From Lytechinus pictus (Eukaryota): a stretch of 64,000 nucleotides of DNA. The stretch covers positions 36,458,001 through 36,522,000 of the forward strand of contig NC_087245.1 in assembly GCF_037042905.1 (NCBI RefSeq). The letters are read 5' to 3'. Below the pieces are notes generated by a model that did not search any database, was not told where the DNA came from, and saw only the letters and a list, made by a program, of their open reading frames with translations. A program made the translations under genes and the position numbers. How positions within the stretch are numbered: position 1 is the first letter of the stretch; each line of letters opens with the position of its first letter. Positions 2,048 through 52,368 of the stretch are shown piece by piece.

Positions 2048-2219
2048 TGTTGTGTATACAGTCTGAATGAAGACTAGTGCGAGGAGACCCGAGATAGGGT
2101 GCACAAGGAAATCGTGTAGTAAAATGGATGCCGATTAAAGTAACGTTTGTGTTGGAATTTGCAGAGTGAATTCTTGTCTTATTTAGACCTCTACTGTAGT
2201 TATGGACTGGTATTGAACA
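2048..2219 (+). repeat. 5' LTR of element A (172 bp)
   Basis: tgttgtgtatac...gtattgaaca, identical by eye to 6829-7000. Confidence 0.97.
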
Positions 2220-2220
2220 T

Positions 2221-2229
2221 TGGCGACGA
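2221..2229 (+). promoter_or_regulatory. Primer-binding site of element A, probably tRNA-Ser
   Basis: TGGCGACGA 1 nt after the LTR; complementary to a ...UCGUCGCCA tRNA 3' end (tRNA-Ser(GCU) from recall). Confidence 0.75.
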
Positions 2230-2230
2230 T

Positions 2231-5200: not shown

Positions 5201-6169
5201 CATAATTGTAGTTTGTGTCAATCAAGTGATAAGGTTTCAAATACTCGTAATACTCCCTTACAGAGTGTTCCTCTTCCTGATGGACCTTGGAAGAAAATAG
5301 GTATTGACATAACAGGTCCATTCAATACTACACAACCTTCATACAAATATGCCATTGTAGCCATAGATTATTACTCCAAATGGCCAGAGGTTGCTTTTGT
5401 TTCTGAAGTGACTACACATTCAGTCATTACATTTCTTACACAAGTGTTCGCTAGGGAAGGTATTCCTTCTGAAGTTGTTACTGACAATGGTGTTCAATTT
5501 GTATCTAGTGAATTTGAAGATTTCCTAAAGAAGCTAGGTATTTCACATTCCAAAGCATCACTGTACTACCCGCGTTCAAATGGTGAGGTTGAACGTTGGA
5601 ATAGGGTGTTGAAGCAAACGCTTCAAATTGCAACAATGCAAGGTAAACCATGGAAGGAAGCAGTCCTTGAATTGCTTATGGCATACCGCGCTACCCCTCA
5701 TCAGACCACTGGTACAACTCCAGCAGAGTTGTTACATGGTCGACCCATGGTCACGCCATTACATATTCATGATGCTAATGATGGCAATAGGCGTGCCGGG
5801 GAGGATACTGAAATGCGAAGGCGTGTTGGTGCAAAGCAAAAGAAAGCACGCGAGTACGCTGACAAAACTAGGGGTGCTTCCATTCCAAAGTTTAGCATTG
5901 GTGATAAGGTTAGAGTGAAAAGAGTCAAGAAAAAGAACAATTCATGGTTTGAGGCACCACAGAAAATTGTAGCCAAAAAGGGTTTGTACACATTTGTCTT
6001 GGAAGACGGACGTATTTGGAATGCCTCAAAACTGACATTGTTCAGGGATAGTGGTCATGTTGATCAGAGAAAATCAAACACAGCTAGTGAACAGACTGGA
6101 AGTCATAATGAAAGACCTAAACGTGACAAAAAAGTACCAGTCTGGACATATGATTATGTTTCTCATTGA
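2231..6169 (+). CDS. Gag-Pol polyprotein, 1312 aa from the first ATG after the PBS
   Basis: Knuckles CYRCGDKRHKANDVSC and CNSCGKKGHFAKVC; protease LLFDTGS; RT LCVDLR, LDLKSAYHQ, YLDD; RNase H TDAS...EKE...TDH...ADALSR; integrase HHCC and D,D,E (GIDI, VTDNG, EVE). No stops. Confidence 0.96.
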   Translation: MANLQPPPYFLPTPGTPAMPWKQWKGLFDVYLVASAANKFNEDRRRALLLHCLGAEGQRVFHTLPSTSSGTSSAIAGSSTETGAGESCSYAEAIDRLDNHFLPTVNVVAERYRFRQRGQMPDEPVETYVCALRSLSLTCAFGDLRDEFIRDQLVEKTNSERIRERLLIEPSLTLQSAMTIARQMESASRETRALNTPADSVNAVKFKPKRRQKQSGAWKQSTASQPEQKTVTCYRCGDKRHKANDVSCKAREATCNSCGKKGHFAKVCRSRQQAVHQISSEQSQLHNVEVLTIHPSKDAILFPVTVNGSVKLDLLFDTGSRVSIIPLDIFDKHFTRKALLPPRANCILTTYLTDEQIPVVGMFKANISHGDLTVMCEFFVATKGSCLMGRDLMKLLHVLPQLPDEVNAVNSEICGEFNELFSDHVGLAKGYVHRVKTKQDVPPVQHKLRRLPFAVRDKVSTELQRLVKADIIEPVESSEWISSLVVVNKKNGDIRLCVDLRDVNRAIVEDKYPLPHIEELLSEMRGATVFSTLDLKSAYHQLLLHEDSRHLTTFITHEGLFQFKRVCFGLSSAPSAFQKLMSSILAGLSGVQCYLDDIIIYGDTLSTHDTNLRAVLQRLQSVGLTLNLQKCQFNLKEISYLGHVISAKGVQPNEDNVAAIRDAPVPEDAATLRSFLGLASYYAKFIPNFSSVTAPLRELTKKDVSFVWSTAAAESFATVKDQILHCSTLHLFDPDLPVVISTDASEYGLGAVLMQMKDGKEVPISYASRTLTKAEKNYSVGEKEALACVWACEKWFQYVWGRHFVLRTDHQSLTTLLSTKGTGRQSMRIARWATRLLRFNYTVEYIPGLQNHAADALSRLPQPTPSVFEDDDHEVVIQSIFAEVTISKAELQQATASDSILQRVIEKILHGWSKESSKDSSLKAYYMIRDELTIIDDCVFRGNRVVIPKSLQAILITNAHSAHQGIVRTKQRLRDIYWWSCMDRMVEDAIHNCSLCQSSDKVSNTRNTPLQSVPLPDGPWKKIGIDITGPFNTTQPSYKYAIVAIDYYSKWPEVAFVSEVTTHSVITFLTQVFAREGIPSEVVTDNGVQFVSSEFEDFLKKLGISHSKASLYYPRSNGEVERWNRVLKQTLQIATMQGKPWKEAVLELLMAYRATPHQTTGTTPAELLHGRPMVTPLHIHDANDGNRRAGEDTEMRRRVGAKQKKAREYADKTRGASIPKFSIGDKVRVKRVKKKNNSWFEAPQKIVAKKGLYTFVLEDGRIWNASKLTLFRDSGHVDQRKSNTASEQTGSHNERPKRDKKVPVWTYDYVSH

Positions 6170-6290
6170 ATCTTGGTAATTAGGCCTGAAAAAGAAATTA
6201 TTTTCATGACAGAAGGGCGTAAATTGTTTTCAGGGTTCATTGATTAAAGAATAGGTATATTTTATGTTTGTTCAAATTATGCTTCAAGGG

Positions 6291-6321
<31 letters not shown>

Positions 6322-6814
6322 AGGAAAGATATTGAACTTCATGGAAATTGTTATACATGAAAAAAACAAAACAAATGAAAAATCAACAATTTGTGTTATT
6401 TTCATTGCAAGTTGAAAGTGATTATTATGTGGTGTACTGTTTTATACAGGTAAAGAAACTTGAAACAGTTGTTTTAAAATTCCTTAATACAACTTACACA
6501 GGTTAAACACTTGCATATGCATATAAAAACAATATATTTAATAAAGTTACCAGGTAAAGAGAAGAAACTCATATTTAAAATAATTGCACTGTACACATCG
6601 GTTTTCAAGATACAAAATATTTATTATGCAACCAGGATACATATGCAAACAATACAGAGTTATGTTTTGAAATACAATGTACATAATGTTACAAACTGAT
6701 TTCAGTATAAGGTTATTTTTTCAAAACACATGTATATGCTAGAAGGTATATTTATACTTCTATTTGCCATTAGTGTTATTTGATCATTTGAAAATTGATA
6801 CGATACCCTATTTC

Positions 6815-6828
6815 AAGTAGAGGGGAGA
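6815..6828 (+). promoter_or_regulatory. Polypurine tract of element A
   Basis: aagtagaggggaga directly before the 3' LTR. Confidence 0.85.
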
Positions 6829-7000
6829 TGTTGTGTATACAGTCTGAATGAAGACTAGTGCGAGGAGACCCGAGATAGGGTGCACAAGGAAATCGTGTAG
6901 TAAAATGGATGCCGATTAAAGTAACGTTTGTGTTGGAATTTGCAGAGTGAATTCTTGTCTTATTTAGACCTCTACTGTAGTTATGGACTGGTATTGAACA
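6829..7000 (+). repeat. 3' LTR of element A (172 bp)
   Basis: Identical to 2048-2219; followed by TSD gacat. Confidence 0.97.
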
Positions 7001-21007: not shown

Positions 21008-22477
21008 AACAAGCAGTGAGTTGGTGACGAAGGATGCTGGCTGGTGGATCCTCACGCTCGTGTGCGACATTCGATTCATTTCTCACGTAAAATAATTAGA
21101 TGACTTCTTTGATATACACCCAAACTTCTTTCTCCTACCTGGAAAACTGGGCACCTAAATTCGCTTTCAACCTGTTCAACTGAAACACCAGCCGATGTCG
21201 TACTAGTTTTAGTTATTGCACCGAGCTCCAACGTCTACCTTCATTCAGCTCGCGGCCGCCGTCGTTTACGGGCTGAACATCTTGTAAATTGGCCTCACCT
21301 CATCAGTGATCATTCGGTGTGTGTTTTCATCGGTCTATTGTAAACGGCCAGGTACTTTTTGACAAGCATCGAGGTGTCACTTTTATGATCACAACTTCTT
21401 TAGATCAGAAGGTAAATATCATTATGTAACCAGATACAAATAGTGCTATCAATCATAGTATGACAAAATTTCACTTTTGACTTGTCTCGTGAAATGATCT
21501 TGTGGTTTTTAGCAACGGAGTGTTGATCCCTGTATTGTATCTGATATTGATAAGATGCAATTGCAATTTAGCATTTTTTGGTAATACCAAATAGGAATTT
21601 TATCTACGTTATTTTATTTTGTATGCAGTCCTACTTGTCTACATTGCAGACATGTTATCTTATTAATCATACATAGATCTAGGACCATTTTTTGTGTATT
21701 CTGTCTTATTTCATATGAATGAATGCTGCCTAATTTAAATAAATGACAATCATGCCACATATCGACTGGGTGCATGATCATTGATCTAGTGTTATTTTGG
21801 TAAGATACACTAGCTGTAATACATCACAAGTTACAGTTAATCATTTAACAGGTTGCTCTAGCTCTTGCAGTGTAGAAGGCTTGTAAATGTCAATGCATGC
21901 ATGACTCGCATTATTTAGAAGCATTTAAGCCTCCATTGTGAATGACAATTGTAAAATATCAGCAATTCCTTTTTCATGTTCTTGATATTGTGAAGAAATA
22001 CCCCCAAAATTTTTCAAAATTCTCTTTTAATATTTTCTATTTAGATCTGTGCTTACTTTCAGCCAGAATTAATTATCCAAAATCTATCCAAAATTCCACT
22101 TTAATACAACGCCACCACTCACAGCTGTTGTTTGTTTTGAATCTTGAATGAACGTAGTAAAATCAGCTGAGTGTGTTTACTACAGCAGTCAATGAGCATA
22201 GTAACGGAGGCAGATTGTGCTATTTTTAGAACCACAGCAATACATAGGATTTAGTACGTGGGACAAGGTTAGGTTAATGGCGTGCACGGTGATGCACGGA
22301 GCGAGTTTTCTCGATAAATTGTCACTTACCTTGTAAATGTCTTTTAGGTGAGGAGCTTGATGCTCTATTTTTCCCTTTTATGATAAAATGATGTCTTTAA
22401 TGATCCTATTTTAGTCACTAGAAGTGATTATTCCCTACCGGAAATGGTACATTCTGTATTTCGTCTTTCGCGGGTGA

Positions 22478-22595
22478 TGACGTCACAAACTTTTGGCCAA
22501 TCACGTAAGCGGGCAAATCAAGTTTTTGTCAGGCGATAGGGGCCCGATGGCTAGGGGTATAAAAGGGGCAGAGGGTGAAAATTTCTTCACTTTGC
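22478..22595 (+). promoter_or_regulatory. Pol II promoter in the LTR (CRE, CCAAT, TATA, Inr)
   Basis: TGACGTCA 22478-22485, CCAAT 22497-22501, TATAAAA 22558-22564, Inr-like TCACTTT with the A at 22589; canonical spacing. Confidence 0.75.
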
Positions 22596-23380
22596 ATCTT
22601 TGAGAGTATTTGTCTAGAGAGAACTCCAAGCCAGTCTTCCAGTTGAAAGTACTTGTAAGCGTTTGACCTTAGCAAGAATCGTGAGTGGAATATTTCTTTA
22701 AACTTCTTAAGGTTATATAATATCCCCCCCCCCTTTTCTATAAAAAGGAATTTCTAATTAAATTTGTGAGAACTGGAATTTCGAAGTTCTTTATAGAAAT
22801 TTTAGGCTTGATGCCCGATCGATGAGATGAATATTTTTATGTCTGCCCTTAACGTTGGTCTTACTCTTAGAGATATTACTTGATTGCTGATTTTATTTTG
22901 TATGTGGTACACAACAGAATTTAAGGAGAGTTTTGTTTTGTTTTTCCCTCTTTCTCAATTGATAAACGCAGAAGTATGAAACATCGTAACGTTAAGGAAA
23001 TTGGGGTAACTTAGGGACAAAAGTGCAAGGGTACCTCGTAGTTATGTAGTCTTTAGTTTGAGTTTGTTTTGTACCTCGTAGTTGCCTATAAATCTAGGCT
23101 TAAGTCTTTTACGTCTTGACAGATGAATATTTAGATGTTATTTCATGATGTGTCTATGGAAATGTTGTAGGCCTAGACTGTTTTAAGTCAGAGAATGTGG
23201 ATGTAGGCCTAGATTTTATTGTATTGTGCATGGAAGAATATGAATTCCCCCCCCCCCCTTCCTTCGACGAAGTTGGCTGGCGTTGTACAGAGAGGTCGAG
23301 GGCAGCTCGAACTCAGTACGGTAGATTGACGGCGGCAGAAATGAGAGGTTCGACAAGTGACAATCCTGAGTAAGGAACGT

Positions 23381-23629
23381 CATCGTGCACCGGTACTCTC
23401 AGTACTCTGTACTTCTCATCGTGCATCGCGTACTCTCAGTACTCTGTACTTCTCATCGTGCACCGGTACTCTCAGTACTCTGTACTTCTCATCGTGCACC
23501 GGTACTCTCAGTACTCTGTACTTGTCATCGTGCATCGCGTACTCTCGGTACTCTGTACTTCTCATCGTGCACCGGTACTCTAGTCTCAGTACTCTGTACT
23601 TCTCATCGTGCATCGCGTACTCAGTACTC
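23381..23629 (+). repeat. Tandem array in the 5' LTR, 7 units of 36-37 bp
   Basis: catcgtgca(ccg/tcgc)gtactctcagtactctgtacttct; unit starts 23381, 23417, 23454, 23490, 23526, 23563, 23604. Confidence 0.95.
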
Positions 23630-25748
23630 CACACCAGTGAACACTGGGCACCGTCTACCAAACCCCTGTCCATCTGAGATGACTTCATAGCTGCTTTCTT
23701 ACATTCAATCCCGGTTAGGGAACGAATTTAAGCAGTCTTCACCATGTTTTCTTCAGTATTTCTGACATTCAATCCCGGATAGGGAACGAATTTAAGCAGT
23801 CTTCACCACGTTTGCTTCGATGTTTCTTCAATTCTTCGACAGCATGGAACCTCTTGACTCTTACCCCCCCCCCCCCTCTCTCATCCTTCCAAGTTATTCA
23901 TGCACACATACAATTATTAATAACTTGTATTTTGGTAGTGTATTAATTCTTATAAAGTTATTTCTAAATACTTAACCAGAACATTTACATGGTTCTAATG
24001 CAAGGAGTTAGAATGGTTGGAATGTTAAGTTTTATGTCTTGTTATGGACCAGGTTGAACATAGGAAGTTGTTGGTATAAAAAGGACTTTGTTAGTCTAAT
24101 ATTTGGGAGATAAAATCTCGAGGCCAGATATTACTAGGAGTTAGTGGCAGGAAATAGGCCGGGGTGGAGAGACCTTGGAATGGCCATTGAAGTGGCGCGA
24201 TGGGTTGGAAACAGGAAAGTTTAGGATTATGTTATAGTTAGGAGAAAAGGTTTGATATCTAGATGCAGGCATTAGATATGTTAAGCAAAGTGATGGTGTA
24301 GAAACAAAGACACCTTTATACCAACTTGGAATGTTGTTCGGAAGACCGTAGAGAATATAGAATAGGCCTACTCGCAGCAAGGTTATGGAAATGATGAAGT
24401 TAGATGGAAATATTTACAAAGTTCACACTTTTACTGAACACAAATCAAACAGACTATGTTGTAGAATTTAAGATAGTTTATTCGAAGAGTGACGAAGCAG
24501 AAATTTCTCGTCATTTATTTACAGCGTAGGTTTATTAAATGTTCGGTGAACATTTAATTATTTTTATTAAGACGTCAGCCATGTAACCTAGGACGGTGAA
24601 CATTTAATTATTTGTATTAAGACGTCAGCCATGTAACCTAGGACTTAGTTTTAAGCATGTAAATATGTCAATTACTGTATAGAAACATCTGATAAAAATG
24701 CCACTTTTACTATTCATGAATTTACAAGAGTTTGAATTGTTAAAGTTATTGTTGTTAATAAATGTTTTACATCGGGTATAACTCGACTTGATGGTTTCCA
24801 AATGAGAAATTACTTAGACCTGGTTTAGTTGCACGAATGTCTGATTAGATCGAGTAGTGACCAGTGGTCGTTGATGTGAATCATGGAATTGTAGTAAATA
24901 GTCTTAAGTCTTAGTAATTTATAGATAGAGTGTTCGTATATTTCGAACAAACGTCCCCGTCATCGACCCTCGACTTAATTACCATGCTATCCGTGAGACA
25001 GAATGTCGTTAGAGAGAAGTCTGAATGAACATGATGTATGCTGGGCATCTGTGGTTTGCTACTGGAAATGTTCTTGGATGGCCGATTGATGTGCTTGTTG
25101 TGTGCTCGAGATTGTTATGAGTGATTGAAGTGCTGTTGTTGTATTGACCGAAGTTACAACGAGCGACCACTGTGCATGTGCAAATGGCTAATCAATGTGC
25201 ACATCGTAACATGTGTCAACTCTTTGTAATTTGGTTGTGTGTACAATGTTGTGTGCATACTGAACATGTGAATGTTCGAAGTGAGTGAAGTAGATTGATT
25301 GATTGTTGAGCTTGACCAGTCATGAATAGTTTAGCTAATTAGTAGGGATGATCAGTTGACTATTACAGTTGACTTACCAGATAAATTCTTGATTGTTGTG
25401 ATGCTGGTCTTGGGAACGAGAGTGGAGAAGGAGTCAAATGTTTGGTCAGTCAGCTGAACTTGGGTCTCCGGTCGTGTATGCATGATTGTGGAGTGCAGAG
25501 CTTATGTGTGTAATGTCGTGCACGTGCGACTGATTGAGGAGATCGAGCATGAGTCATGCCCTTCCCAGTCCTCACCCCCCCCCCCCCCCCTTGTCTACCC
25601 AGTATGAGTCCCAGCTATTGTTACGTCATGTTAGATTTCTGTATAGGTTGTCTGGATTTCCCCGGAACAACCAAGGGCTCATACCCCTAGAAAAGTATGT
25701 GGTGGCAGCATTTTACCTTTTGTTAGGAGGGTCTCACGTTACATTTTC

Positions 25749-25767
25749 TGGTGGCAGCGGTGGGATT
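25749..25767 (+). promoter_or_regulatory. Primer-binding site, tRNA-Leu
   Basis: TGGTGGCAGCGGTGGGATT, 5 nt after the LTR; complement of the ...AAUCCCACCGCUGCCACCA end of tRNA-Leu(AAG)-type tRNAs (recall). Confidence 0.88.
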
Positions 25768-26366
25768 AAGCTCTATCTGTTATCAAACATTATTTATAGT
25801 AATTAAGCTAAAGAAGGATTGTGTACTTGAAGTAAAAGTTGATTATTTGTCAGAATTTGTTTTGAAATCAGAATTTATCTGAGGAAGTTGTTGATAAGAA
25901 TGAGTTTGCTTGGTATGGAGTAAAGGAAGTTGGAATTTTGAAGCTGATGTTATGGGTCTGAATTGACAAGGTTAGAGTTGCTACTTGGAAAACAGTAAGA
26001 GTCTGTTTGTCTGGAGTTAGTAGAGTTGAGTGTCTGAAGTCAAGTTTGGTCTTGTAAATCAGTTCAAGTGGATATGTGCTTCATAAACCAGGCATAAGTT
26101 AAAAAAAAAAAAAAAAAAAATCTTAGAGTAAGAGTGGCATCTTTCGTAGTAGGAAATAACTTAGTTAATTCATAACGAAATGTATTTTAAGTAGTAACGT
26201 TGATAACAATTAAACTCGAAAGAGTAATCAAACATTTGTAAGAGGTACCCTTGTTAAAAAAAAATTATTGTTAATTCAAAAATTAAACAAACACAAATGT
26301 GTAACAAAAGCTTCCTGGCAATTTTTCTGAATTCAAAAGAAACTGAACAAAAATTGCAAGCTTAGA

Positions 26367-27386
26367 ATGGAAGGTGAGCAAGAAAACATTACTGGTGGTG
26401 GTGATAGGTCACACTGGACGGTGGTCAGTGACGATCCAGAAATCGCAGTAGGAGAATCAGGAGATGTTCAGCAGAATTCTGGACACGTTTACACGCCACA
26501 AGGATTCAGAGATAACCCTCTTTACGTTCAGAGCACACAAACCACTGAAGTGAAGCAGAATGAATCAGGATTCCGTAAAGATGTCTTGCCGGAGAAATTT
26601 GGTGGAAAGACGCCATGGGGTGATTACAAGCGTCATTTCGAGGTTTGCATGAACTTGAATCGATGGTCTGACTATGAAGCAGGGCAATTTCTGGCAACAA
26701 GGCTTCAAGGTTCTGCGTTGAAGATCCTGAATAATTTCCCTGCTGGAAGGCGCATCTCATACCGAGAACTTGTATCACAGCTGGAGAGTAGATTTGGTCC
26801 TGGAGAACAAGCAGAAAATTTCCTCCTGGAGTTACGTGTGCGACGTAGACACAAGGATGAGACGCTTCAGGAACTTGGGCAGGCAATCAGAGACCTGACG
26901 TGTTTGGCCTACCCAGAGCTAAGCAGTGAAGCTCGACAGCGACTGGCAAGGGGACATTTCTCCGATGCGATTGACGACCCGGAGATTAGGGCTGGAATTT
27001 TCAGGGCCCATCCACAGACGCTTGATGACGCCATCCAAGCTGGTCTTGCAACAGAGTCATTCCTTAGGGCCGAGAAATCAAGAGATCGAAATAGACTTCC
27101 CCGTCACGTCCGTGCAGTGGATTCTGTTCAACCAGTACCTATGGACGAGAAAACAAGAAAGGAAATTGAGGAGTTGAAGATGAACATGAAACGGCTAAGT
27201 ACATTGATTGAGGATATGGCTATCAATCACCAACCAAACAGAAACTATAAAGCGTGTTTCAACTGCAATCAAGTGGGACATTTTGCAAGGGAGTGCCCAC
27301 AGACCAATGCAAGACAGGGAAACGACAGCCGGTCTTTCCGAGGGGCCACGGCCAGGCCGAGTTTCAGACAGGGTCCACGAGTTTAA
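26367..27386 (+). CDS. Gag, 339 aa
   Basis: PEKFGGKTPWGDYKRHFE capsid-like start; CFNCNQVGHFAREC knuckle. Confidence 0.93.
   Translation: MEGEQENITGGGDRSHWTVVSDDPEIAVGESGDVQQNSGHVYTPQGFRDNPLYVQSTQTTEVKQNESGFRKDVLPEKFGGKTPWGDYKRHFEVCMNLNRWSDYEAGQFLATRLQGSALKILNNFPAGRRISYRELVSQLESRFGPGEQAENFLLELRVRRRHKDETLQELGQAIRDLTCLAYPELSSEARQRLARGHFSDAIDDPEIRAGIFRAHPQTLDDAIQAGLATESFLRAEKSRDRNRLPRHVRAVDSVQPVPMDEKTRKEIEELKMNMKRLSTLIEDMAINHQPNRNYKACFNCNQVGHFARECPQTNARQGNDSRSFRGATARPSFRQGPRV
27317..27323 (+). promoter_or_regulatory. -1 ribosomal frameshift slippery heptamer
   Basis: G_GGA_AAC in the gag frame inside the gag/pol overlap; pol is in the -1 frame; GC-rich sequence follows. Confidence 0.85.
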
Positions 27387-29317
27387 GCTCACACAAGAAT
27401 CAGCATACAGTTATTTGCACCATTACCGAGACTGATCAGAGTATGTTTGTGACAGGAGTTGTTAAGAATGAAACATTGCTGCTATTAATCGACACTGGGT
27501 CAACAGTTACTATACTATCTAACAAGGCATATTGCAAAATGAAGGAATTCAATATGCTAGATGATGTGAATGTAAAATTGTTGCAAGCTGACGGGACACC
27601 CATTGAAGTATTTGGAAAAGCATGGATCATAATCACGATTGGGACACTATCTCATAGGATGGAGGCTGTTATAGCAGATATCAAACATGATGGCATCCTG
27701 GGATTGGATTTTCTGAGTAGTAGGAGGGTGAAAATCGACTGTGAACAAAATCATATCAGCATCGATGGTGAAATCATCCCATGTGAGGACCGCACAGGAG
27801 GAAGACTTGAACTTCCACTTCAAACAGCAGCTGTCACTCAATCTACTACTGAAGTACCAGACCATTTGATAGATGTCTACAATAGTACCAAACTCAGCAT
27901 TGATGAGGAGTACTACCATGATGTCGCTAATTTGTTGTCAGAATTTAGTGATGGATTCTCTAAGGGTGATCATGATATTGGACGTACTGACAGGGTCAAA
28001 CATAGCATCCACACCACAAGCACTGGACCAATCCGGCAGAGACCGAGACGCCATCCCATGGGACAAAGAGAAGAGGTTGAGAAACAAATTCAAGACATGC
28101 TTGCACGGGGTATTATCAAACCCTCGAATAGTGCCTGGTCTTCTCCAATTGTATTAGTGGACAAGAAAGATGGAACCAAGCGATTCTGCGTTGATTATAG
28201 ACTGCTAAACAAGTACACAGCAAAAGACTCATTTCCACTGCCCAGTATTGCTGAATCATTGGATTCACTTGATGGTGCAAAATATTTTTGCACGCTGGAT
28301 CTAGCATCTGGATACTGGCAAGTTCCCCTAGACGATGATGCCAAGGCAAAATCAGCATTCGTGGTACCAGGAGGGCTGTATGAATTTGAAGTCATGCCAT
28401 TTGGACTTTGCAATGCACCATCCACCTTCGAGAGATTAATGGAAAATGTCTTAACAGGATTGCAATGGAAAATACTTTTGATCTATCTCGATGACGTCAT
28501 AGTGTATGGTCCATCGGTACCGGAGATGATTAACAGACTGAAGACTACCCTTCAACGGCTGCGGGAAGCAAATCTAAAACTCAAACCAAAGAAGTGTCAC
28601 CTATTTCAGAAGGAGGTGCTATACCTAGGTCATGTGGTGTCTGAACACGGAGTTAGTACAGATCCCGCTAAGATTGAAGTCGTTTCAAGCTGGCCTACAC
28701 CTACCAACCCAACTGATGTAAGGAGCTTCTTGGGCCTTGCCTCATACTATAGGAGGTTCATTAAGAAATTTGCTGATGTTGCCAAGCCACTGACTGCTCT
28801 CACTCAGAAAGATCACCAATTCGTCTGGACGGAGGAGTGTGAATCTGCATTTAACACACTGAAGGAAAGACTTACTACAGCACCCATACTAACTTACCCC
28901 AGGTTAGATGCAGAGTTCCTGTTAGACACTGATGCAAGCAAGTATGGAATGGGAGCTGTACTCTCACAAGAGAAAGATGACAAGGAATTAGTGGTAGCAT
29001 ATGCAAGCAGGACTCTAAACAGGGCAGAGCAAAACTACTGCGTGACCAGACGGGAGTTACTTGCTGTTGTCACATTTCTGAAGCATTTCAGACATTATTT
29101 GTATGGACAGAAAGTAACAGTGCGCACTGATCATGGAGCTCTTAGATGGTTAATGGATTTCAAAAATCCAGAAGGTCAATTAGCAAGATGGTTAGAGGTC
29201 ATCAGCCAATATAGACTTACCTTAGTTCATCGTGCTGGACGGGTACACATGAATGCAGATGGATTGTCTCGGCGTCCCTGTTCCCAGTGTGGTAGACTAG
29301 AAGATATCTGCAAGTAG
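27323..29317 (+). CDS. Pol (protease, RT, RNase H) entered by frameshift; ends before integrase
   Basis: LIDTGS; RFCVDYR, LDLASGYWQ, MPFGL, YLDD; DTDAS...RRE...RTDH...NADGLSR; TAG at 29315-29317. Confidence 0.93.
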   Translation, partial: RQPVFPRGHGQAEFQTGSTSLSSHKNQHTVICTITETDQSMFVTGVVKNETLLLLIDTGSTVTILSNKAYCKMKEFNMLDDVNVKLLQADGTPIEVFGKAWIIITIGTLSHRMEAVIADIKHDGILGLDFLSSRRVKIDCEQNHISIDGEIIPCEDRTGGRLELPLQTAAVTQSTTEVPDHLIDVYNSTKLSIDEEYYHDVANLLSEFSDGFSKGDHDIGRTDRVKHSIHTTSTGPIRQRPRRHPMGQREEVEKQIQDMLARGIIKPSNSAWSSPIVLVDKKDGTKRFCVDYRLLNKYTAKDSFPLPSIAESLDSLDGAKYFCTLDLASGYWQVPLDDDAKAKSAFVVPGGLYEFEVMPFGLCNAPSTFERLMENVLTGLQWKILLIYLDDVIVYGPSVPEMINRLKTTLQRLREANLKLKPKKCHLFQKEVLYLGHVVSEHGVSTDPAKIEVVSSWPTPTNPTDVRSFLGLASYYRRFIKKFADVAKPLTALTQKDHQFVWTEECESAFNTLKERLTTAPILTYPRLDAEFLLDTDASKYGMGAVLSQEKDDKELVVAYASRTLNRAEQNYCVTRRELLAVVTFLKHFRHYLYGQKVTVRTDHGALRWLMDFKNPEGQLARWLEVISQYRLTLVHRAGRVHMNADGLSRRPCSQCGRLEDICK

Positions 29318-29429
29318 AGATATATTGTAAATAAGCATTTTGTTTTAGGAGTTAATTACATATGTACATATTGTGTTATTTTGATTACTATAGAAACTGA
29401 TGGATAGCTGAATTAGTCAAACTATAGTC

Positions 29430-30455
29430 ATGGATGTTGAAAATGAGATAGTGGAGAAAGTTCAGGCAATCAGCCTTTCACCCGGCATAAGCAATGCTGA
29501 AATTAAGAGAGCACAACTTCAAGATGTTGATCTGAAACATATACTACGGTGGAAACAAGAAGCAAGACAGAAGCCTGAGTGGAAAGATGTGTCCAGTTTG
29601 TCATCAGCTACAAAGTCGTACTGGGTCAATTGGGACTTATTGACCATTCGGGATGATATCCTCATGAGGAGATGGGAATCTAATGATGGGAAAGAGGTCA
29701 ACTGGAAAGTAGTTTTACCCCATTCACTTCGTCAACTGGTGCTCCAGGAATTGCACAGCTCCAAGACAGCATGTCACCTGGGAGTAAATAAGCTATTGCA
29801 CAAAGTACAACAAAGATATTACTGGGTGGGATTAGCAGCTGATGTCAGGTCATTTGTGCGCAAGTGTGTAGTCTGCTCTAAGCTGAAAAATCCACCCAAG
29901 AAATCAAGAGCCCCATTACAAAAGTACAGAGTAGGAGCCACTTTGGAGAGGGTAGCGATGGACATTTTAGGCCCCTTACCAGTAACTGACAGAGGAAATC
30001 GGTACGTCTTGGTAATTGGTGATTATTTCACCAAATGGATAGAGTCGTACCCAATTCCGGATCAAGAAGCTAGGACAGTGGCAAGGATTGTAGTGGAAGA
30101 ATTCATCTGTCGATATGGCATTCCAAAAGAATTACACACAGACCAAGGGAGGAATTTTGAGTCTAATGTTATGACAGAAGTTTGTAAGATGATGGGCATA
30201 AAGAAAACTAGGACATGCCCGCTTCATCCCAGGAGTGATGGATATATAGAAAGATTCAATAGAACGCTAGTTACCATGGTATCTTCCATTCTAGATCCTG
30301 ACCGCCACCAGAGAGACTGGGATGAGCAGATTCCATATGCGATGTTGGCTTATAGATCAGCAGTCCAAGAATCCACAGATGACTTATTTGTACTGCCACA
30401 TCTGCAAGAAGAGCATCAAAGGTTACAAGTATGGACAGCATATGCAGGAACATGA
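29430..30455 (+). CDS. Integrase in a separate ORF, C-terminally truncated
   Basis: LHSSKTACHLG...CVVC zinc motif; AMDILGP, LHTDQGRNFE, GYIERFNRTL catalytic core; homology ends at AYRSAVQEST (about 30378). Confidence 0.9.
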   Translation: MDVENEIVEKVQAISLSPGISNAEIKRAQLQDVDLKHILRWKQEARQKPEWKDVSSLSSATKSYWVNWDLLTIRDDILMRRWESNDGKEVNWKVVLPHSLRQLVLQELHSSKTACHLGVNKLLHKVQQRYYWVGLAADVRSFVRKCVVCSKLKNPPKKSRAPLQKYRVGATLERVAMDILGPLPVTDRGNRYVLVIGDYFTKWIESYPIPDQEARTVARIVVEEFICRYGIPKELHTDQGRNFESNVMTEVCKMMGIKKTRTCPLHPRSDGYIERFNRTLVTMVSSILDPDRHQRDWDEQIPYAMLAYRSAVQESTDDLFVLPHLQEEHQRLQVWTAYAGT

Positions 30456-31266
30456 GGCCACTATGACGCTCCAGTGTACATACTGTTCATACGAAACTGA
30501 GGGGAGATCCGAGATGACGAGGCACTTTGGAAGAATGCATAACAGCAGAAAACAGGAGGCTAAATACATTAACTACACGGCGGCGACAAATGAACATCTA
30601 AGTAGGAAACGTGAAGGGGAGAGGAAAAGAAGGGACAAAGAGGAAGAAAGGAAGACAGAAAGGGAGAGTAAGGACAGGAAGGAAAGAAAGCGTGAAGTAG
30701 AAGAGGAAGAAAGGAAGACAGAAAGGGAGAGTAAGGACAGGAAGGAAAGAAAGCGTGAAATAGAGGAAGAAAGGAAGACAGAAAGGAAGGAAAGAAAGCA
30801 TGAAGGAGAGGAAGAAAGGAAGACAGAAAGGGAAAGTAAGGACAGGAGGGAAAGTAAGGACAGGAAGGAAAAGAAAGACAGGGAGGACATTAAGAAAGAG
30901 AAAGAGGACAGGAAGGAGAAGCTTGAGGAGGAGCAGCCTGAGGAGGAAGACAGAAGAACCCAGTCAGGGGAGGCAGAGGTAGACAGTAGAGATACACTTG
31001 ACCTCCATCCTGATGAGAGCTCGGAGGAAGAGTCTGGGGATGAAGAATCCGAGGAGGAGGAAGAGGACTCCATGTCACGAAAAAGGGAACTAACTGTAAC
31101 CACTGAGGAGGAAATAGACGTAAATTTGAAAGTGAAAAAGCCAAGGTTAGGTTACATCCAAGTGAACAGAGTGGAGGTGTATACAACCACTTTCATAACG
31201 GCATATGGAGAGAAGCGAGTGCATGAGGAGAAGAAGACCATATATTATTTTAATGAACAGAAGTAG
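30379..31266 (+). CDS. Accessory ORF3: 295-aa protein with two C2H2 zinc fingers and charged, acidic and basic tracts
   Basis: CHICKKSIKGYKYGQHMQEH and CTYCSYETEGRSEMTRHFGRMH; ERKTERESKDRKERK repeats; acidic tract ESSEEESGDEESEEEEED; KVKKPR; lies between integrase and PPT. Confidence 0.8.
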   Translation: MTYLYCHICKKSIKGYKYGQHMQEHEATMTLQCTYCSYETEGRSEMTRHFGRMHNSRKQEAKYINYTAATNEHLSRKREGERKRRDKEEERKTERESKDRKERKREVEEEERKTERESKDRKERKREIEEERKTERKERKHEGEEERKTERESKDRRESKDRKEKKDREDIKKEKEDRKEKLEEEQPEEEDRRTQSGEAEVDSRDTLDLHPDESSEEESGDEESEEEEEDSMSRKRELTVTTEEEIDVNLKVKKPRLGYIQVNRVEVYTTTFITAYGEKRVHEEKKTIYYFNEQK

Positions 31267-31450
31267 TTTAATGATGTGATCATCTTAATTTTGTATATAC
31301 ATGTGAATTACAGTATACTATAAGATGGTTTGTTGAAGAAGTGATAAATGATTCTGAGATCTGAATGTTTTAAGAAAATAATTTGATTGAATCTGTTAAA
31401 ATTGTATATTTTCAATAGTGTTTTAAATTGAATCGCTGGGACAGCGATTT

Positions 31451-31466
31451 AGTAAGAGGGGGGCAG
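31451..31466 (+). promoter_or_regulatory. Polypurine tract of element B, preceded by a hairpin
   Basis: agtaagagggggcag-type purine run next to the 3' LTR; aatcgctg-gga-cagcgatt at 31431-31449. Confidence 0.85.
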
Positions 31467-34400
31467 TGTGAAGAAATACCCCCAAAATTTTTCAAAATTC
31501 TCTTTTAATATTTTCTATTTAGATCTGTGCTTACTTTCAGCCAGAATTAATTATCCAAAATCTATCCAAAATTCCACTTTAATACAACGCCACCACTCAC
31601 AGCTGTTGTTTGTTTTGAATCTTGAATGAACGTAGTAAAATCAGCTGAGTGTGTTTACTACAGCAGTCAATGAGCATAGTAACGGAGGCAGATTGTGCTA
31701 TTTTTAGAACCACAGCAATACATAGGATTTAGTACGTGGGACAAGGTTAGGTTAATGGCGTGCACGGTGATGCACGGAGCGAGTTTTCTCGATAAATTGT
31801 CACTTACCTTGTAAATGTCTTTTAGGTGAGGAGCTTGATGCTCTATTTTTCCCTTTTATGATAAAATGATGTCTTTAATGATCCTATTTTAGTCACTAGA
31901 AGTGATTATTCCCTACCGGAAATGGTACATTCTGTATTTCGTCTTTCGCGGGTGATGACGTCACAAACTTTTGGCCAATCACGTAAGCGGGCAAATCAAG
32001 TTTTTGTCAGGCGATAGGGGCCCGATGGCTAGGGGTATAAAAGGGGCAGAGGGTGAAAATTTCTTCACTTTGCATCTTTGAGAGTATTTGTCTAGAGAGA
32101 ACTCCAAGCCAGTCTTCCAGTTGAAAGTACTTGTAAGCGTTTGACCTTAGCAAGAATCGTGAGTGGAATATTTCTTTAAACTTCTTAAGGTTATATAATA
32201 TCCCCCCCCCCCCCTTTTCTATAAAAAGGAATTTCTAATTAAATTTGTGAGAACTGGAATTTCGAAGTTCTTTATAGAAATTTTAGGCTTGATGCCCGAT
32301 CGATGAGATGAATATTTTTATGTCTGCCCTTAACGTTGGTCTTACTCTTAGAGATATTACTTGATTGCTGATTTTATTTTGTATGTGGTACACAACAGAA
32401 TTTAAGGAGAGTTTTGTTTTGTTTTTCCCTCTTTCTCAATTGATAAACGCAGAAGTATGAAACATCGTAACGTTAAGGAAATTGGGGTAACTTAGGGACA
32501 AAAGTGCAAGGGTACCTCGTAGTTATGTAGTCTTTAGTTTGAGTTTGTTTTGTACCTCGTAGTTGCCTATAAATCTAGGCTTAAGTCTTTTACGTCTTGA
32601 CAGATGAATATTTAGATGTTATTTCATGATGTGTCTATGGAAATGTTGTAGGCCTAGACTGTTTTAAGTCAGAGAATGTGGATGTAGGCCTAGATTTTAT
32701 TGTATTGTGCATGGAAGAATATGAATTCCCCCCCCCCCCCTTCCTTCGACGAAGTTGGCTGGCGTTGTACAGAGAGGTCGAGGGCAGCTCGAACTCAGTA
32801 CGGTAGATTGACGGCGGCAGAAATGAGAGGTTCGACAAGTGACAATCCTGAGTAAGGAACGTCATCGTGCACCGGTACTCTCAGTACTCTGTACTTCTCA
32901 TCGTGCATCGCGTACTCTCAGTACTCTGTACTTCTCATCGTGCACCGGTACTCTCAGTACTCTGTACTTCTCATCGTGCACCGGTACTCTCAGTACTCTG
33001 TACTTGTCATCGTGCATCGCGTACTCTCGGTACTCTGTACTTCTCATCGTGCACCGGTACTCTAGTCTCAGTACTCTGTACTTCTCATCGTGCATCGCGT
33101 ACTCAGTACTCCACACCAGTGAACACTGGGCACCGTCTACCAAACCCCTGTCCATCTGAGATGACTTCATAGCTGCTTTCTTACATTCAATCCCGGTTAG
33201 GGAACGAATTTAAGCAGTCTTCACCATGTTTTCTTCAGTATTTCTGACATTCAATCCCGGATAGGGAACGAATTTAAGCAGTCTTCACCACGTTTGCTTC
33301 GATGTTTCTTCAATTCTTCGACAGCATGGAACCTCTTGACTCTTACCCCCCCCCCCCCCCCTCTCTCATCCTTCCAAGTTATTCATGCACACATACAATT
33401 ATTAATAACTTGTATTTTGGTAGTGTATTAATTCTTATAAAGTTATTTCTAAATACTTAACCAGAACATTTACATGGTTCTAATGCAAGGAGTTAGAATG
33501 GTTGGAATGTTAAGTTTTATGTCTTGTTATGGACCAGGTTGAACATAGGAAGTTGTTGGTATAAAAAGGACTTTGTTAGTCTAATATTTGGGAGATAAAA
33601 TCTCGAGGCCAGATATTACTAGGAGTTAGTGGCAGGAAATAGGCCGGGGTGGAGAGACCTTGGAATGGCCATTGAAGTGGCGCGATGGGTTGGAAACAGG
33701 AAAGTTTAGGATTATGTTATAGTTAGGAGAAAAGGTTTGATATCTAGATGCAGGCATTAGATATGTTAAGCAAAGTGATGGTGTAGAAACAAAGACACCT
33801 TTATACCAACTTGGAATGTTGTTCGGAAGACCGTAGAGAATATAGAATAGGCCTACTCGCAGCAAGGTTATGGAAATGATGAAGTTAGATGGAAATATTT
33901 ACAAAGTTCACACTTTTACTGAACACAAATCAAACAGACTATGTTGTAGAATTTAAGATAGTTTATTCGAAGAGTGACGAAGCAGAAATTTCTCGTCATT
34001 TATTTACAGCGTAGGTTTATTAAATGTTCGGTGAACATTTAATTATTTTTATTAAGACGTCAGCCATGTAACCTAGGACGGTGAACATTTAATTATTTGT
34101 ATTAAGACGTCAGCCATGTAACCTAGGACTTAGTTTTAAGCATGTAAATATGTCAATTACTGTATAGAAACATCTGATAAAAATGCCACTTTTACTATTC
34201 ATGAATTTACAAGAGTTTGAATTGTTAAAGTTATTGTTGTTAATAAATGTTTTACATCGGGTATAACTCGACTTGATGGTTTCCAAATGAGAAATTACTT
34301 AGACCTGGTTTAGTTGCACGAATGTCTGATTAGATCGAGTAGTGACCAGTGGTCGTTGATGTGAATCATGGAATTGTAGTAAATAGTCTTAAGTCTTAGT

Positions 34401-35225
34401 AATTTATAGATAGAGTGTTCGTATATTTCGAACAAACGTCCCCGTCATCGACCCTCGACTTAATTACCATGCTATCCGTGAGACAGAATGTCGTTAGAGA
34501 GAAGTCTGAATGAACATGATGTATGCTGGGCATCTGTGGTTTGCTACTGGAAATGTTCTTGGATGGCCGATTGATGTGCTTGTTGTGTGCTCGAGATTGT
34601 TATGAGTGATTGAAGTGCTGTTGTTGTATTGACCGAAGTTACAACGAGCGACCACTGTGCATGTGCAAATGGCTAATCAATGTGCACATCGTAACATGTG
34701 TCAACTCTTTGTAATTTGGTTGTGTGTACAATGTTGTGTGCATACTGAACATGTGAATGTTCGAAGTGAGTGAAGTAGATTGATTGATTGTTGAGCTTGA
34801 CCAGTCATGAATAGTTTAGCTAATTAGTAGGGATGATCAGTTGACTATTACAGTTGACTTACCAGATAAATTCTTGATTGTTGTGATGCTGGTCTTGGGA
34901 ACGAGAGTGGAGAAGGAGTCAAATGTTTGGTCAGTCAGCTGAACTTGGGTCTCCGGTCGTGTATGCATGATTGTGGAGTGCAGAGCTTATGTGTGTAATG
35001 TCGTGCACGTGCGACTGATTGAGGAGATCGAGCATGAGTCATGCCCTTCCCAGTCCTCACCCCCCCCCCCCCTTGTCTACCCAGTATGAGTCCCAGCTAT
35101 TGTTACGTCATGTTAGATTTCTGTATAGGTTGTCTGGATTTCCCCGGAACAACCAAGGGCTCATACCCCTAGAAAAGTATGTGGTGGCAGCATTTTACCT
35201 TTTGTTAGGAGGGTCTCACGTTACA
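31467..35225 (+). repeat. 3' LTR of element B (3759 bp)
   Basis: Copy of 21989-25743 including promoter and array (32863-33111); followed by TSD atat. Confidence 0.96.
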
Positions 35226-36700
35226 ATATGTATGCAGACTCCACTTGGCATGACATGAATTATGAATGACTTGAATGGCATGATAATTGTCTTGACAATA
35301 GACGGATAAAGAAGGGGGGGGGGGCTTCCATGCAATAGTACATCATTAGGAAATGGTAAGAAAGGGAAGTTATGTTATATAAACAAACATTTGTCATGAG
35401 ATTGAAGCTTTCCATGAATCCCTGTCTCATACAGATTGCTGGGCGATGATGATTATAATGCGTCTAAAGAATATATTGTCAAATGTAAGATTTTTAAAGC
35501 ACCTAAATGATCAAGAATTAACTCGTCACTACTTTGCTTCTCATGACGGCACACAGATATGGAACCACTCATGAATGCTCAGCACAATTATTTCATCTTT
35601 TTGGGGTCATATTTAGATGGTAATGCCATCTCAAGAGTGCAATATTTTCACTGCACCTTAATAACATGAAAAGAGTGCTCCCAAATGATCGCTTTCACTT
35701 TCCAAACACACAGGTTTCCCTTTAAATATTTCCAAAGAATTGGATCCCCATCCCCCCTAAAACAGGTGCTTATAGTCGACTATGATATTTGTATCAAATT
35801 GTAAATTTTGTAGAGTGATATGAGCTATGGACATTCTGCTGGTGAGAAGAAAAAATGTTGAAACTGGGAACTTTTCAATCATGATTAAGTACCAACCTTA
35901 ACACTAAATGGTAAAAAAAACTCTATAAAAAACCCTAACACTCTAATTTACATAGCAAAGAAGGATGGGGGGGGGGGGGGGGGGGCTTGGCTGGCAATGT
36001 ATTCTGCTGTCTCAAAATAGAATCACATAGCCTTCAAAGAGGAAGTGGTCTGGGGATAATCCTCAGAGATGTCCTTTTGATGGTATTTTTACTTATATGG
36101 TATCTTTGAAATCTGAAAGAAAATAACAACTTTATTCAGAATATACATGGATACAGGTATTTCTATGAGCTAGAGTCCCCAGTTTTTCATGATAGAGAAA
36201 AGAGAAAGAAAATCATGGAATTCAGGAAGTACACAGATTTCAAAGAATTTCACAGAAAAAAAACATTGTACTGGCCAAACATGTGAATTGCAAAATATGC
36301 AATGAAAATCATTCATGTTAAGTGAAAATCTGTCCTCTCTGTCAAACATGTTTGCTGTGTTTAGCATGTGATTGCAAAGCTGTATCTGTATTGATTTTTT
36401 TTTTTTGGGGGGGTTAGTTTTTCATTCAAAATTGCTTTGAAATCTTGTTATGTGCACGTTACCCAACACCAACACAAATGAACAGCGTATTGGCATTTTA
36501 TAAAACAGAACAATGTAGGGTTTCTGCATAATCCCTACTTTGATGATTGGAAGTTATGATATAGACTACTGGAATTACATTTTCATTAGCTTTATTGTAT
36601 TGTAATTCATGATTTTTTGTAAATTAACCCTTTCTGCATGTGCTGTTGGTGTTTATGTATATACTATATACCAATAAAGAAATAAGAAAGTAAAAAAGGG

Positions 36701-52170: not shown

Positions 52171-52368
52171 TTTTTTTACCTGATTGCTAAGAAAGCATGA
52201 ATGCTTGTAAGCAAGCAACCAGAGGACCAACGGCTTAAGGTCCTCTCCGAAGGACCTGGTAACGAGGATTAATGCCTTACCAAAGGGCACTAGCGCACTA
52301 AGTGGGAATCGAACCCAGGTCACCGGATTACGAATCCCCCGCTCTACCGACTGAGCTATCGCGCCTCC
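52171..52368 (-). mobile_element. tRNA-derived SINE
   Basis: Minus strand tagctcagtcggtagagc A box, ggttcgattccc B box, non-tRNA body, A tail. Confidence 0.85.

What the first reader, a model, noticed from the sequence alone, without database searches (positions are those of the whole stretch)
30361..30390. Integrase is cut off at a splice-junction-like point fused directly to the ORF3 ATG
Seen: integrase homology stops at ...gaa tcc aca g| and the next base is the A of the ORF3 ATG. Established: Gypsy integrases usually continue TG.TP here, as element A does (HQTTGTTP). Inference: the parent read ACAG|GT, a splice donor, and this copy was reverse-transcribed from a spliced RNA that removed the integrase C-terminus up to the ORF3 acceptor. 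With identical LTRs this suggests a spliced, non-autonomous derivative mobilised in trans while keeping the zinc-finger gene.
Basis: inference. Interest (0 to 1): 0.72.

Follow-up and report, generated by a model that had tools for sequence, protein, structure and literature searches.

The report
Retrotransposon copy made from spliced RNA
A very young jumping-gene copy, whose closest named relatives come from sea urchins, lacks the end of its integration enzyme exactly between two splice signals, so it was probably copied from a spliced RNA, a rare but already described kind of event.

Summary
The junction is real: integrase (IN) homology stops at ACAG 30378 and the ORF3 ATG starts at 30379. 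About 160-170 C-terminal residues found in close relatives are missing. The acceptor was not seen directly; Lytechinus gene models enter ORF3 exactly at its Met in 5 of 8 joins, and distant relatives have acceptor-like tracts before the ORF3 ATG. The LTRs have no substitution in 3,755 bases. Best reading (0.75): a spliced GC-AG RNA was reverse-transcribed and integrated by IN from longer copies. Not shown: that the junction form is multi-copy, or that ORF3 is still expressed (its acceptor tract is gone). No listed read or contig spanned the junction. Precedents: spliced HERV-H and Mtv proviruses. More unusual, and seen in passing: this clade keeps IN in a stand-alone ORF and makes spliced antisense RNA.

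The parts
21985..21988 (+). left target-site duplication ATAT
   Evidence: matches 35226-35229
21989..25743 (+). 5' LTR, 3,755 bases, TG...CA; TATA box near 22558, single AATAAA at 24757
25371..25380 (-). minus-strand splice donor (TG|GTAAGT, exon edge 25378; equivalent place in the 3' LTR about 34863) used by antisense RNA from the LTR
   Evidence: loose ends and a 30378-to-25378 joint; sequence
25749..25766 (+). primer-binding site (tRNA-Leu type: assignment recalled, not from a call)
26367..27386 (+). gag, intact, with CCHC knuckle
27251..29317 (+). protease-RT-RNase H frame (-1 to gag), intact, ends in its own TAG
29318..29429 (+). AT-rich spacer (25% GC) between RNase H and IN, with an acceptor-like TAG at 29393; clade feature, not a lesion
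   Evidence: spanned by the organism B contig
29430..30378 (+). stand-alone integrase ORF, HHCC and DDE residues present, homology ends at EST
30376..30381 (+). the junction CAG|ATG: exon side of a GC donor joined to the ORF3 start
30379..30455 (+). 25-residue out-of-frame tail of the truncated IN, overlapping ORF3
30379..31266 (+). ORF3, 295 aa: two C2H2-type fingers, K/E/R-rich middle, acidic stretch, conserved C-terminal stretch
30275..30378 (-). antisense exon (extends past 30378 in longer copies), spliced to 29307
   Evidence: (CT..AC joint 29307-30275)
29218..29307 (-). antisense exon, spliced on to 27135
   Evidence: (CT..AC joint 27135-29218: X1 contig, 3 X21 reads, 1 X22 read)
31454..31466 (+). 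polypurine tract
31467..35225 (+). 3' LTR, 3,759 bases
35226..35229 (+). right target-site duplication ATAT

Best explanation
Longer elements of this family express ORF3 through a splice acceptor just before its ATG (inferred from relatives). A strong GC donor inside the IN coding sequence (CAG|GCGAGT, seen in reads) was spliced to that acceptor in an otherwise full-length RNA, removing the last ~160-170 IN codons and the IN-ORF3 spacer (inferred). That RNA kept both LTR ends, the primer site and the polypurine tract (shown), was packaged and reverse-transcribed, and was integrated with a 4-base target duplication by IN made from a longer RNA (integration shown, source of IN inferred). Recombination or gene conversion with a spliced cDNA would give the same junction and is counted here. 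The copy is IN-defective; ORF3 stays as DNA but has lost its acceptor tract, so it is more likely a passenger than a selected cargo (inferred).
For: Loose ends exactly behind 30378 in one X1 contig (161 letters) and 3 X22 RNA reads start GCGAGT and encode the same peptide as the 87%-identical relative P0277. CAG|GCGAGT scores 9 of 9 on a relaxed donor consensus; 0 of 446 GT/GC sites in 25744-30378 score 9, 3 score 8. L. pictus gene models (ORF3 fingers 92-93% identical in P0121-P0124) enter ORF3 at the Met in 5 of 8 internal joins, at an L in the Met's place in 2, inside in 1; the unjoined donor-side peptides continue with Val (GTN codon) 5 of 5 times for KEKKK[DE]E and in 11 of 13 IN relatives for GDW. 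P0124 holds an IN C-terminal piece, absent from the window, next to ORF3. In an S. purpuratus sister family (73%) IN is joined to the ORF3 homologue in gene models and in a Logan ORF call whose 17-residue tail fits ORF3 in the +1 frame 17 of 17 (shuffles at most 4), against unjoined P0400. Distant loci: acceptor-like tract within 12 bases of the first ORF3 ATG in 4 of 10 (P=0.022) or 3 of 10 (P=0.014), one directly TAG|ATG; any upstream Met, 7 of 12 (expected 2.9, P=0.008) or 6 of 12 (expected 1.4, P=0.0008). No LTR substitution in 3,755 bases leaves little time for a later DNA deletion.
Against: The right end of the missing piece was never seen in this family; the acceptor rests on gene models and relatives. 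No listed read or contig spans the junction or splices into 30379 in 4 of 4 runs laid, and depth over 30388-30590 was 0 in X1, X21, X22 and 12.8 against about 125 in X11 (the tool filters some records and hid 34 loose ends and 101 pieces). Two other listed loose ends at 30373 and 30378 continue GGA-GAG, which is no donor; I read them as other families because they also differ upstream, but record identity was not printed. That the GC reads are this family is inferred. The acceptor thresholds were set after I had seen the contexts, the any-Met rule after seeing L083, and the loci are not all independent. Donor and acceptor share AG or CAG, so a microhomology deletion gives the same letters.
Confidence: 0.75

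Rival explanations
1. A splicing-independent deletion: reverse-transcriptase template switch or DNA end-joining between short AG/CAG microhomologies, which by chance removed the IN end and spacer.
For: The junction letters AG could come from either side. Internal deletions are the commonest lesion of LTR elements (established knowledge). IN alone has 22 CAG and 92 AG sites. No junction RNA was seen.
Against: It must hit the only 9-of-9 donor among 446 sites and the exact ORF3 start that relatives use as a splice entry. LTRs without substitutions leave little time for a post-insertion deletion.
Confidence: 0.17
2. The junction joins two subfamilies: the IN 5' part of one and the ORF3 of another, by recombination during reverse transcription, so nothing was simply 'cut out'.
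For: ORF3's first 200 bases had no depth at 88% likeness in X1, X21, X22 although gag-pol did. Parts of pol differ from X1 contigs by 2% while gag differs by 0.4% (records 5 and 4).
Against: Filtering of low-complexity or human-like records can make such a hole (caveat). L. pictus models place a matching IN C-terminal piece beside a 92%-identical ORF3. The donor coincidence stays unexplained.
Confidence: 0.04
3. Assembly error, or the normal structure of the family with a short but working IN.
For: No laid read or contig was shown crossing the junction; LTR poly-C lengths differ, as in long-read errors.
Against: Longer forms exist in reads; 0 of 40 relatives that reach the motif end here; the lost part aligns to Ty3 IN for about 130 more residues and to foamy-virus core constructs for 18 more; an error would not be expected to land on splice signals.
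Confidence: 0.04

Closest known systems
Spliced endogenous proviruses: Mtv with the rem intron deleted, and spliced HERV-H (PMC11998498, passages read; the HERV-H paper of Goodchild 1995 seen only as cited there)
   Same: Provirus-like copy with both LTRs whose internal deletion matches an intron; HERV-H used a cryptic splice site; the authors call such insertions rare and allow recombination or gene conversion with spliced cDNA.
   Different: Those are vertebrate retroviruses with many copies and a known spliced mRNA; this is an invertebrate Gypsy copy, one copy seen, GC donor inside IN, out-of-frame join, spliced RNA not yet observed.
Drosophila copia 2.1-kb spliced RNA (10.1101/2023.05.27.542554, passages read)
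   Same: A spliced LTR-retrotransposon RNA can be reverse-transcribed.
   Different: That study found no genomic read matching spliced copia; the copia splice is the functional gag mRNA, whereas this splice yields no useful frame.
Gypsy/Ty3 elements with a spliced third ORF: Drosophila gypsy env (passage), Athila ORF2 (PMC7197481 passage), C. elegans Cer1 CERV (PMC10309623, abstract and outline only)
   Same: Extra protein made from a spliced subgenomic RNA.
   Different: ORF3 here is a two-finger C2H2, highly charged protein with no env match in Pfam; likeness to CERV is of role only and untested.
Ty3 integrase, PDB 7q5b, and prototype foamy virus integrase
   Same: HHCC and DDE core align.
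   Different: The window's IN stops before the last part of the core and lacks the C-terminal region; it sits in its own ORF rather than in Pol.

Membership tests
Ty3/Gypsy LTR retrotransposon | LTRs TG...CA, target duplication, PBS, PPT | tested here: met
Ty3/Gypsy LTR retrotransposon | gag then PR-RT-RH-IN order | tested here: met
Ty3/Gypsy LTR retrotransposon | IN in one polyprotein with RT-RH | tested here: not met
   stop at 29315-29317 and spacer; 0 of 43 relatives at 63% or more carry the RNase H end motif upstream, 128 of 195 more distant ones do: a clade variant
Ty3/Gypsy LTR retrotransposon | RT phylogeny places it in a named clade | not tested
   no tree was built
LTR copy derived from spliced RNA | longer copies carry an insert at the junction | tested here: met
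   loose ends behind 30378 in X1 and X22; family identity inferred
LTR copy derived from spliced RNA | insert starts with a splice donor | tested here: met
   GC donor, 9 of 9 on relaxed consensus; not GT
LTR copy derived from spliced RNA | insert ends with pyrimidine tract plus AG | tested here: inconclusive
   only indirect: gene-model joins and relatives; no genome held
LTR copy derived from spliced RNA | the same splice is seen in RNA from long loci | tested here: inconclusive
   no such joint listed; RNA depth very low and mostly antisense
LTR copy derived from spliced RNA | integrase-type insertion (two LTRs, short duplication), not LINE-type | tested here: met
Non-autonomous LTR subfamily | lacks a function needed to move | tested here: met
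   IN truncated; loss of activity inferred, not assayed
Non-autonomous LTR subfamily | several insertions share the lesion | not testable with these tools
   no genome; the X11 contig ends at the junction, which is suggestive only

The most novel reading that the evidence does not exclude
The junction form is a self-propagating spliced subfamily shared by related sea urchins, and it is the visible by-product of a Gypsy clade that works like a complex retrovirus: IN made from its own ORF and mRNA apart from RT-RH, a spliced zinc-finger accessory protein (possibly an RNA-export or transcription regulator, sometimes spliced onto IN), and spliced antisense RNA from the LTR.
Probability: 0.2. Interest if true: 0.7.

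Novelty: new member of a known kind. Interest (0 to 1): 0.42.

Why it matters
A genomic copy of a spliced RNA is a fossil of RNA processing: it marks the ORF3 acceptor to the base and shows that partly spliced RNAs of this element are packaged and integrated. Such copies are called rare even for retroviruses (PMC11998498), and my searches listed no invertebrate Gypsy case (open-access library only). As a single dead-end insertion it changes little; the clade's stand-alone IN and spliced zinc-finger ORF are the better lead.

Tried and rejected
No whole genome is held, so genomic copies could not be aligned or counted. No RNA holder on record was listed for the stretch; raw RNA runs of the same species label were laid instead. 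The viral collection gave no relative; genome contigs gave 6 distant loci, metagenomes 80, none above 65% identity, so the donor and acceptor of close relatives could not be read as DNA. Donor dinucleotides at the matching site in 60 distant loci are mixed (GT 13, GC 7, other 40): the donor is not conserved, which fits a cryptic site. Synonymous versus non-synonymous counts on the rows shown (40 of 364): window-lineage 4 versus 9, X1-only 9 versus 8; too few and biased to the protease-linker region, so no claim of relaxed selection. Three loose-end strings had no match in the window. An antisense splice as cause of the junction was rejected: the missing piece starts GC, not CT. The ESM Atlas gave generic C2H2 clusters for ORF3 and nothing for its C-terminal stretch. 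Earlier findings: none. Rows dropped from the acceptor test: L022, L031, L035 (motif is IN's own), L069 (repeat, no Met), L086 (finger inside the IN frame); L082 was kept as a miss although its ORF seems to lie in an LTR. Literature searches for a Gypsy clade with a separate IN ORF returned 0 papers. PMC6338049 (passages) had nothing relevant. No supplements were read; repeat libraries in supplements of sea-urchin genome papers, and Repbase entries, could already describe this family.

Full report
Observation. The element spans 21989-35225, with LTRs of 3,755 and 3,759 bases that differ only in the length of four poly-C runs, an ATAT target duplication, a primer site and a polypurine tract. 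Inside lie gag (26367-27386), a protease-RT-RNase H frame ending in TAG at 29317, a 112-base AT-rich spacer, an integrase ORF from 29430, and ORF3 (30379-31266) with C2H2-type fingers. At the flagged place the DNA reads ATCCACAG|ATGACT: IN homology ends at EST, the IN frame runs 25 unrelated residues to a stop, and ORF3 begins in the +1 frame. Element A reads HQTTGTTP as stated.

What is missing. Most of the closest IN relatives (65-76%; P0277 87%) continue EST-GE(S/T)P-xMMMLGRE and, where complete, run to 474-506 residues. Of 43 stored relatives at 63% or more, 40 reach the motif and none ends there. About 160-170 residues are lost. In relative P0002 the cut falls after residue 330; Ty3 IN aligns on to residue 464 and foamy-virus core constructs to 348. 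So the end of the catalytic core and the whole C-terminal part are gone; that this inactivates IN is inference from established integrase structure.

The left end. No genome was available, so I laid four public runs on 23660-30590. One X1 contig and three X22 RNA reads leave the window exactly behind 30378 and go on GCGAGT..., coding G-E-S-P-A-M-M-M-L-G as in P0277. The longer form therefore reads CAG|GCGAGT. GC-AG introns with otherwise strong donors are the known minor class (recalled). Caveats: two other listed loose ends continue GGA-GAG and seem to be other families; that the GC reads belong to this family is inferred from antisense RNA joints that tie this exon to this LTR and gag; and 34 loose ends were not shown. 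At the matching site 60 distant loci show no conserved donor, so this is a cryptic site.

The right end. It was not seen directly. Three indirect lines agree. First, Lytechinus pictus gene models with fingers 92-93% identical to ORF3 join foreign exons to ORF3 exactly at its Met in 5 of 8 internal joins, at a Leu in the Met's place in 2 and further in once; where the donor-side peptides are not joined they continue with Val, whose codon starts GT. Such models need AG before the ATG. One of them, P0124, carries a piece of the IN C-terminus that the window lacks next to ORF3. Second, a Strongylocentrotus purpuratus sister family has IN joined to an ORF3 homologue in gene models and in a Logan ORF call, P0401, whose tail fits ORF3 read one base into its ATG for 17 of 17 residues (shuffles at most 4), while P0400 has the unjoined IN. 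That Logan calls are plain ORF calls is my assumption, and whether the contig is RNA or DNA is unknown. Third, distant loci with a finger ORF after IN often have a pyrimidine tract plus YAG within 12 bases of the ATG: 4 of 10 or 3 of 10 by first Met (P 0.022, 0.014), L065 directly TAG|ATG; 7 of 12 or 6 of 12 by any Met (P 0.008, 0.0008). The thresholds were chosen after viewing the contexts and the loci are partly related, so these P values are generous.

Against. In none of the four runs was a read or contig listed that crosses the junction or splices into 30379, and the first 200 bases of ORF3 had no depth in X1, X21, X22 and 12.8 against about 125 in X11. RNA depth was a few reads and mostly antisense, and the tool filters some records, so this is weak, but it means the splice itself is unobserved and ORF3's link to long copies in the same species is not shown. 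The 4,155-base X11 contig (96% alike) ends at the junction with two letters unaligned; a graph branch there would fit both forms existing in a second organism, but other causes are possible.

How it most likely arose. Shown: a young, integrase-type insertion; a longer form with a strong GC donor at the break. Inferred: an acceptor at the ORF3 ATG; splicing of the cryptic IN donor to it in an RNA that kept both ends; packaging, reverse transcription and integration by IN from longer RNA. No substitution in 3,755 LTR bases (95% bound about 0.08%) makes a later DNA deletion unlikely. I give this 0.75, a microhomology deletion 0.17, subfamily recombination 0.04, artefact or normal structure 0.04. 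'Mobilised in trans' is trivially true for one round; a spreading subfamily needs several insertions and could not be counted. 'Keeping the zinc-finger gene' is true of the DNA only: upstream of the ATG there is now IN coding sequence with 7 of 15 pyrimidines, so ORF3's usual splice route is probably lost and it is the fourth frame on the RNA. For ORF3's role in long copies my guess is a nuclear regulator of the element's own RNA or promoter, by analogy with spliced CERV of Cer1 (PMC10309623, abstract only); untested, about 0.3.

Comparison with what is known. LTR-bounded copies of spliced RNA are described for Mtv and HERV-H and called rare (PMC11998498, passages); for Drosophila copia the spliced RNA can be reverse-transcribed but no genomic spliced read was found in one study (10.1101/2023.05.27.542554, passages). 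My searches of the open-access library listed no invertebrate Gypsy case (listings only), which does not show there is none. The finding is a new member of a known kind.

Beyond the finding. The RNase H/IN split is not damage: 0 of 43 relatives at 63% or more carry the RNase H end motif upstream of IN, against 128 of 195 more distant ones, the closest fused form being 60%. IN thus needs its own translation route; an acceptor-like TAG lies at 29393, but no sense splice there was listed. RNA reads also show spliced antisense transcripts from a donor in the LTR through exons in IN, RNase H and gag. Two searches for a Gypsy clade with a separate IN frame returned nothing. These features carry the novel case (0.2, interest 0.7). 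Overall interest 0.42.

Noticed in passing
window 29315-29430: RNase H and integrase are separated by a stop and a 112-base AT-rich spacer; all 43 relatives at 63% identity or more lack RNase H upstream of IN, so this clade seems to encode a stand-alone integrase.
   Followed up: partly
window 25378, 27135-29218, 29307-30275 (minus strand): Spliced antisense RNA with GT-AG ends runs from a donor in the LTR through exons in IN, RNase H and gag; other reads join the same LTR donor to sequence not in the window.
   Followed up: partly
proteins P0121-P0125: L. pictus gene models named as host proteins (glutamic acid-rich, H3K79 methyltransferase-like) are repeated pieces of this family's ORF3 and IN C-terminus; four lie on one 70.6-Mb record, probably a tandem array.
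   Followed up: partly
proteins P0276, P0395-P0399, P0401: An S. purpuratus sister family has IN joined in frame to the zinc-finger ORF3 in several gene models: a possible spliced IN-zinc-finger fusion.
   Followed up: partly
L086:1-2124: A distant relative has the zinc-finger ORF in the same frame as a full-length IN, with no stop between.
   Followed up: no
L082:2193-5373: A zinc-finger ORF and a second long ORF follow a TATA box in what looks like an LTR of a distant relative.
   Followed up: no
window 21989-25743: The LTR is unusually long (3.76 kb), with a promoter-like cluster near 22480-22600, a minisatellite near 23380-23630 and one AATAAA at 24757, which implies an R region of about 2 kb.
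   Followed up: no
window 2048-7000: Element A: a second young Gypsy element with identical 172-base LTRs and one intact 1,341-codon frame.
   Followed up: no
window 52293-52364: A tRNA-Thr(CGT)-like gene on the minus strand.
   Followed up: no
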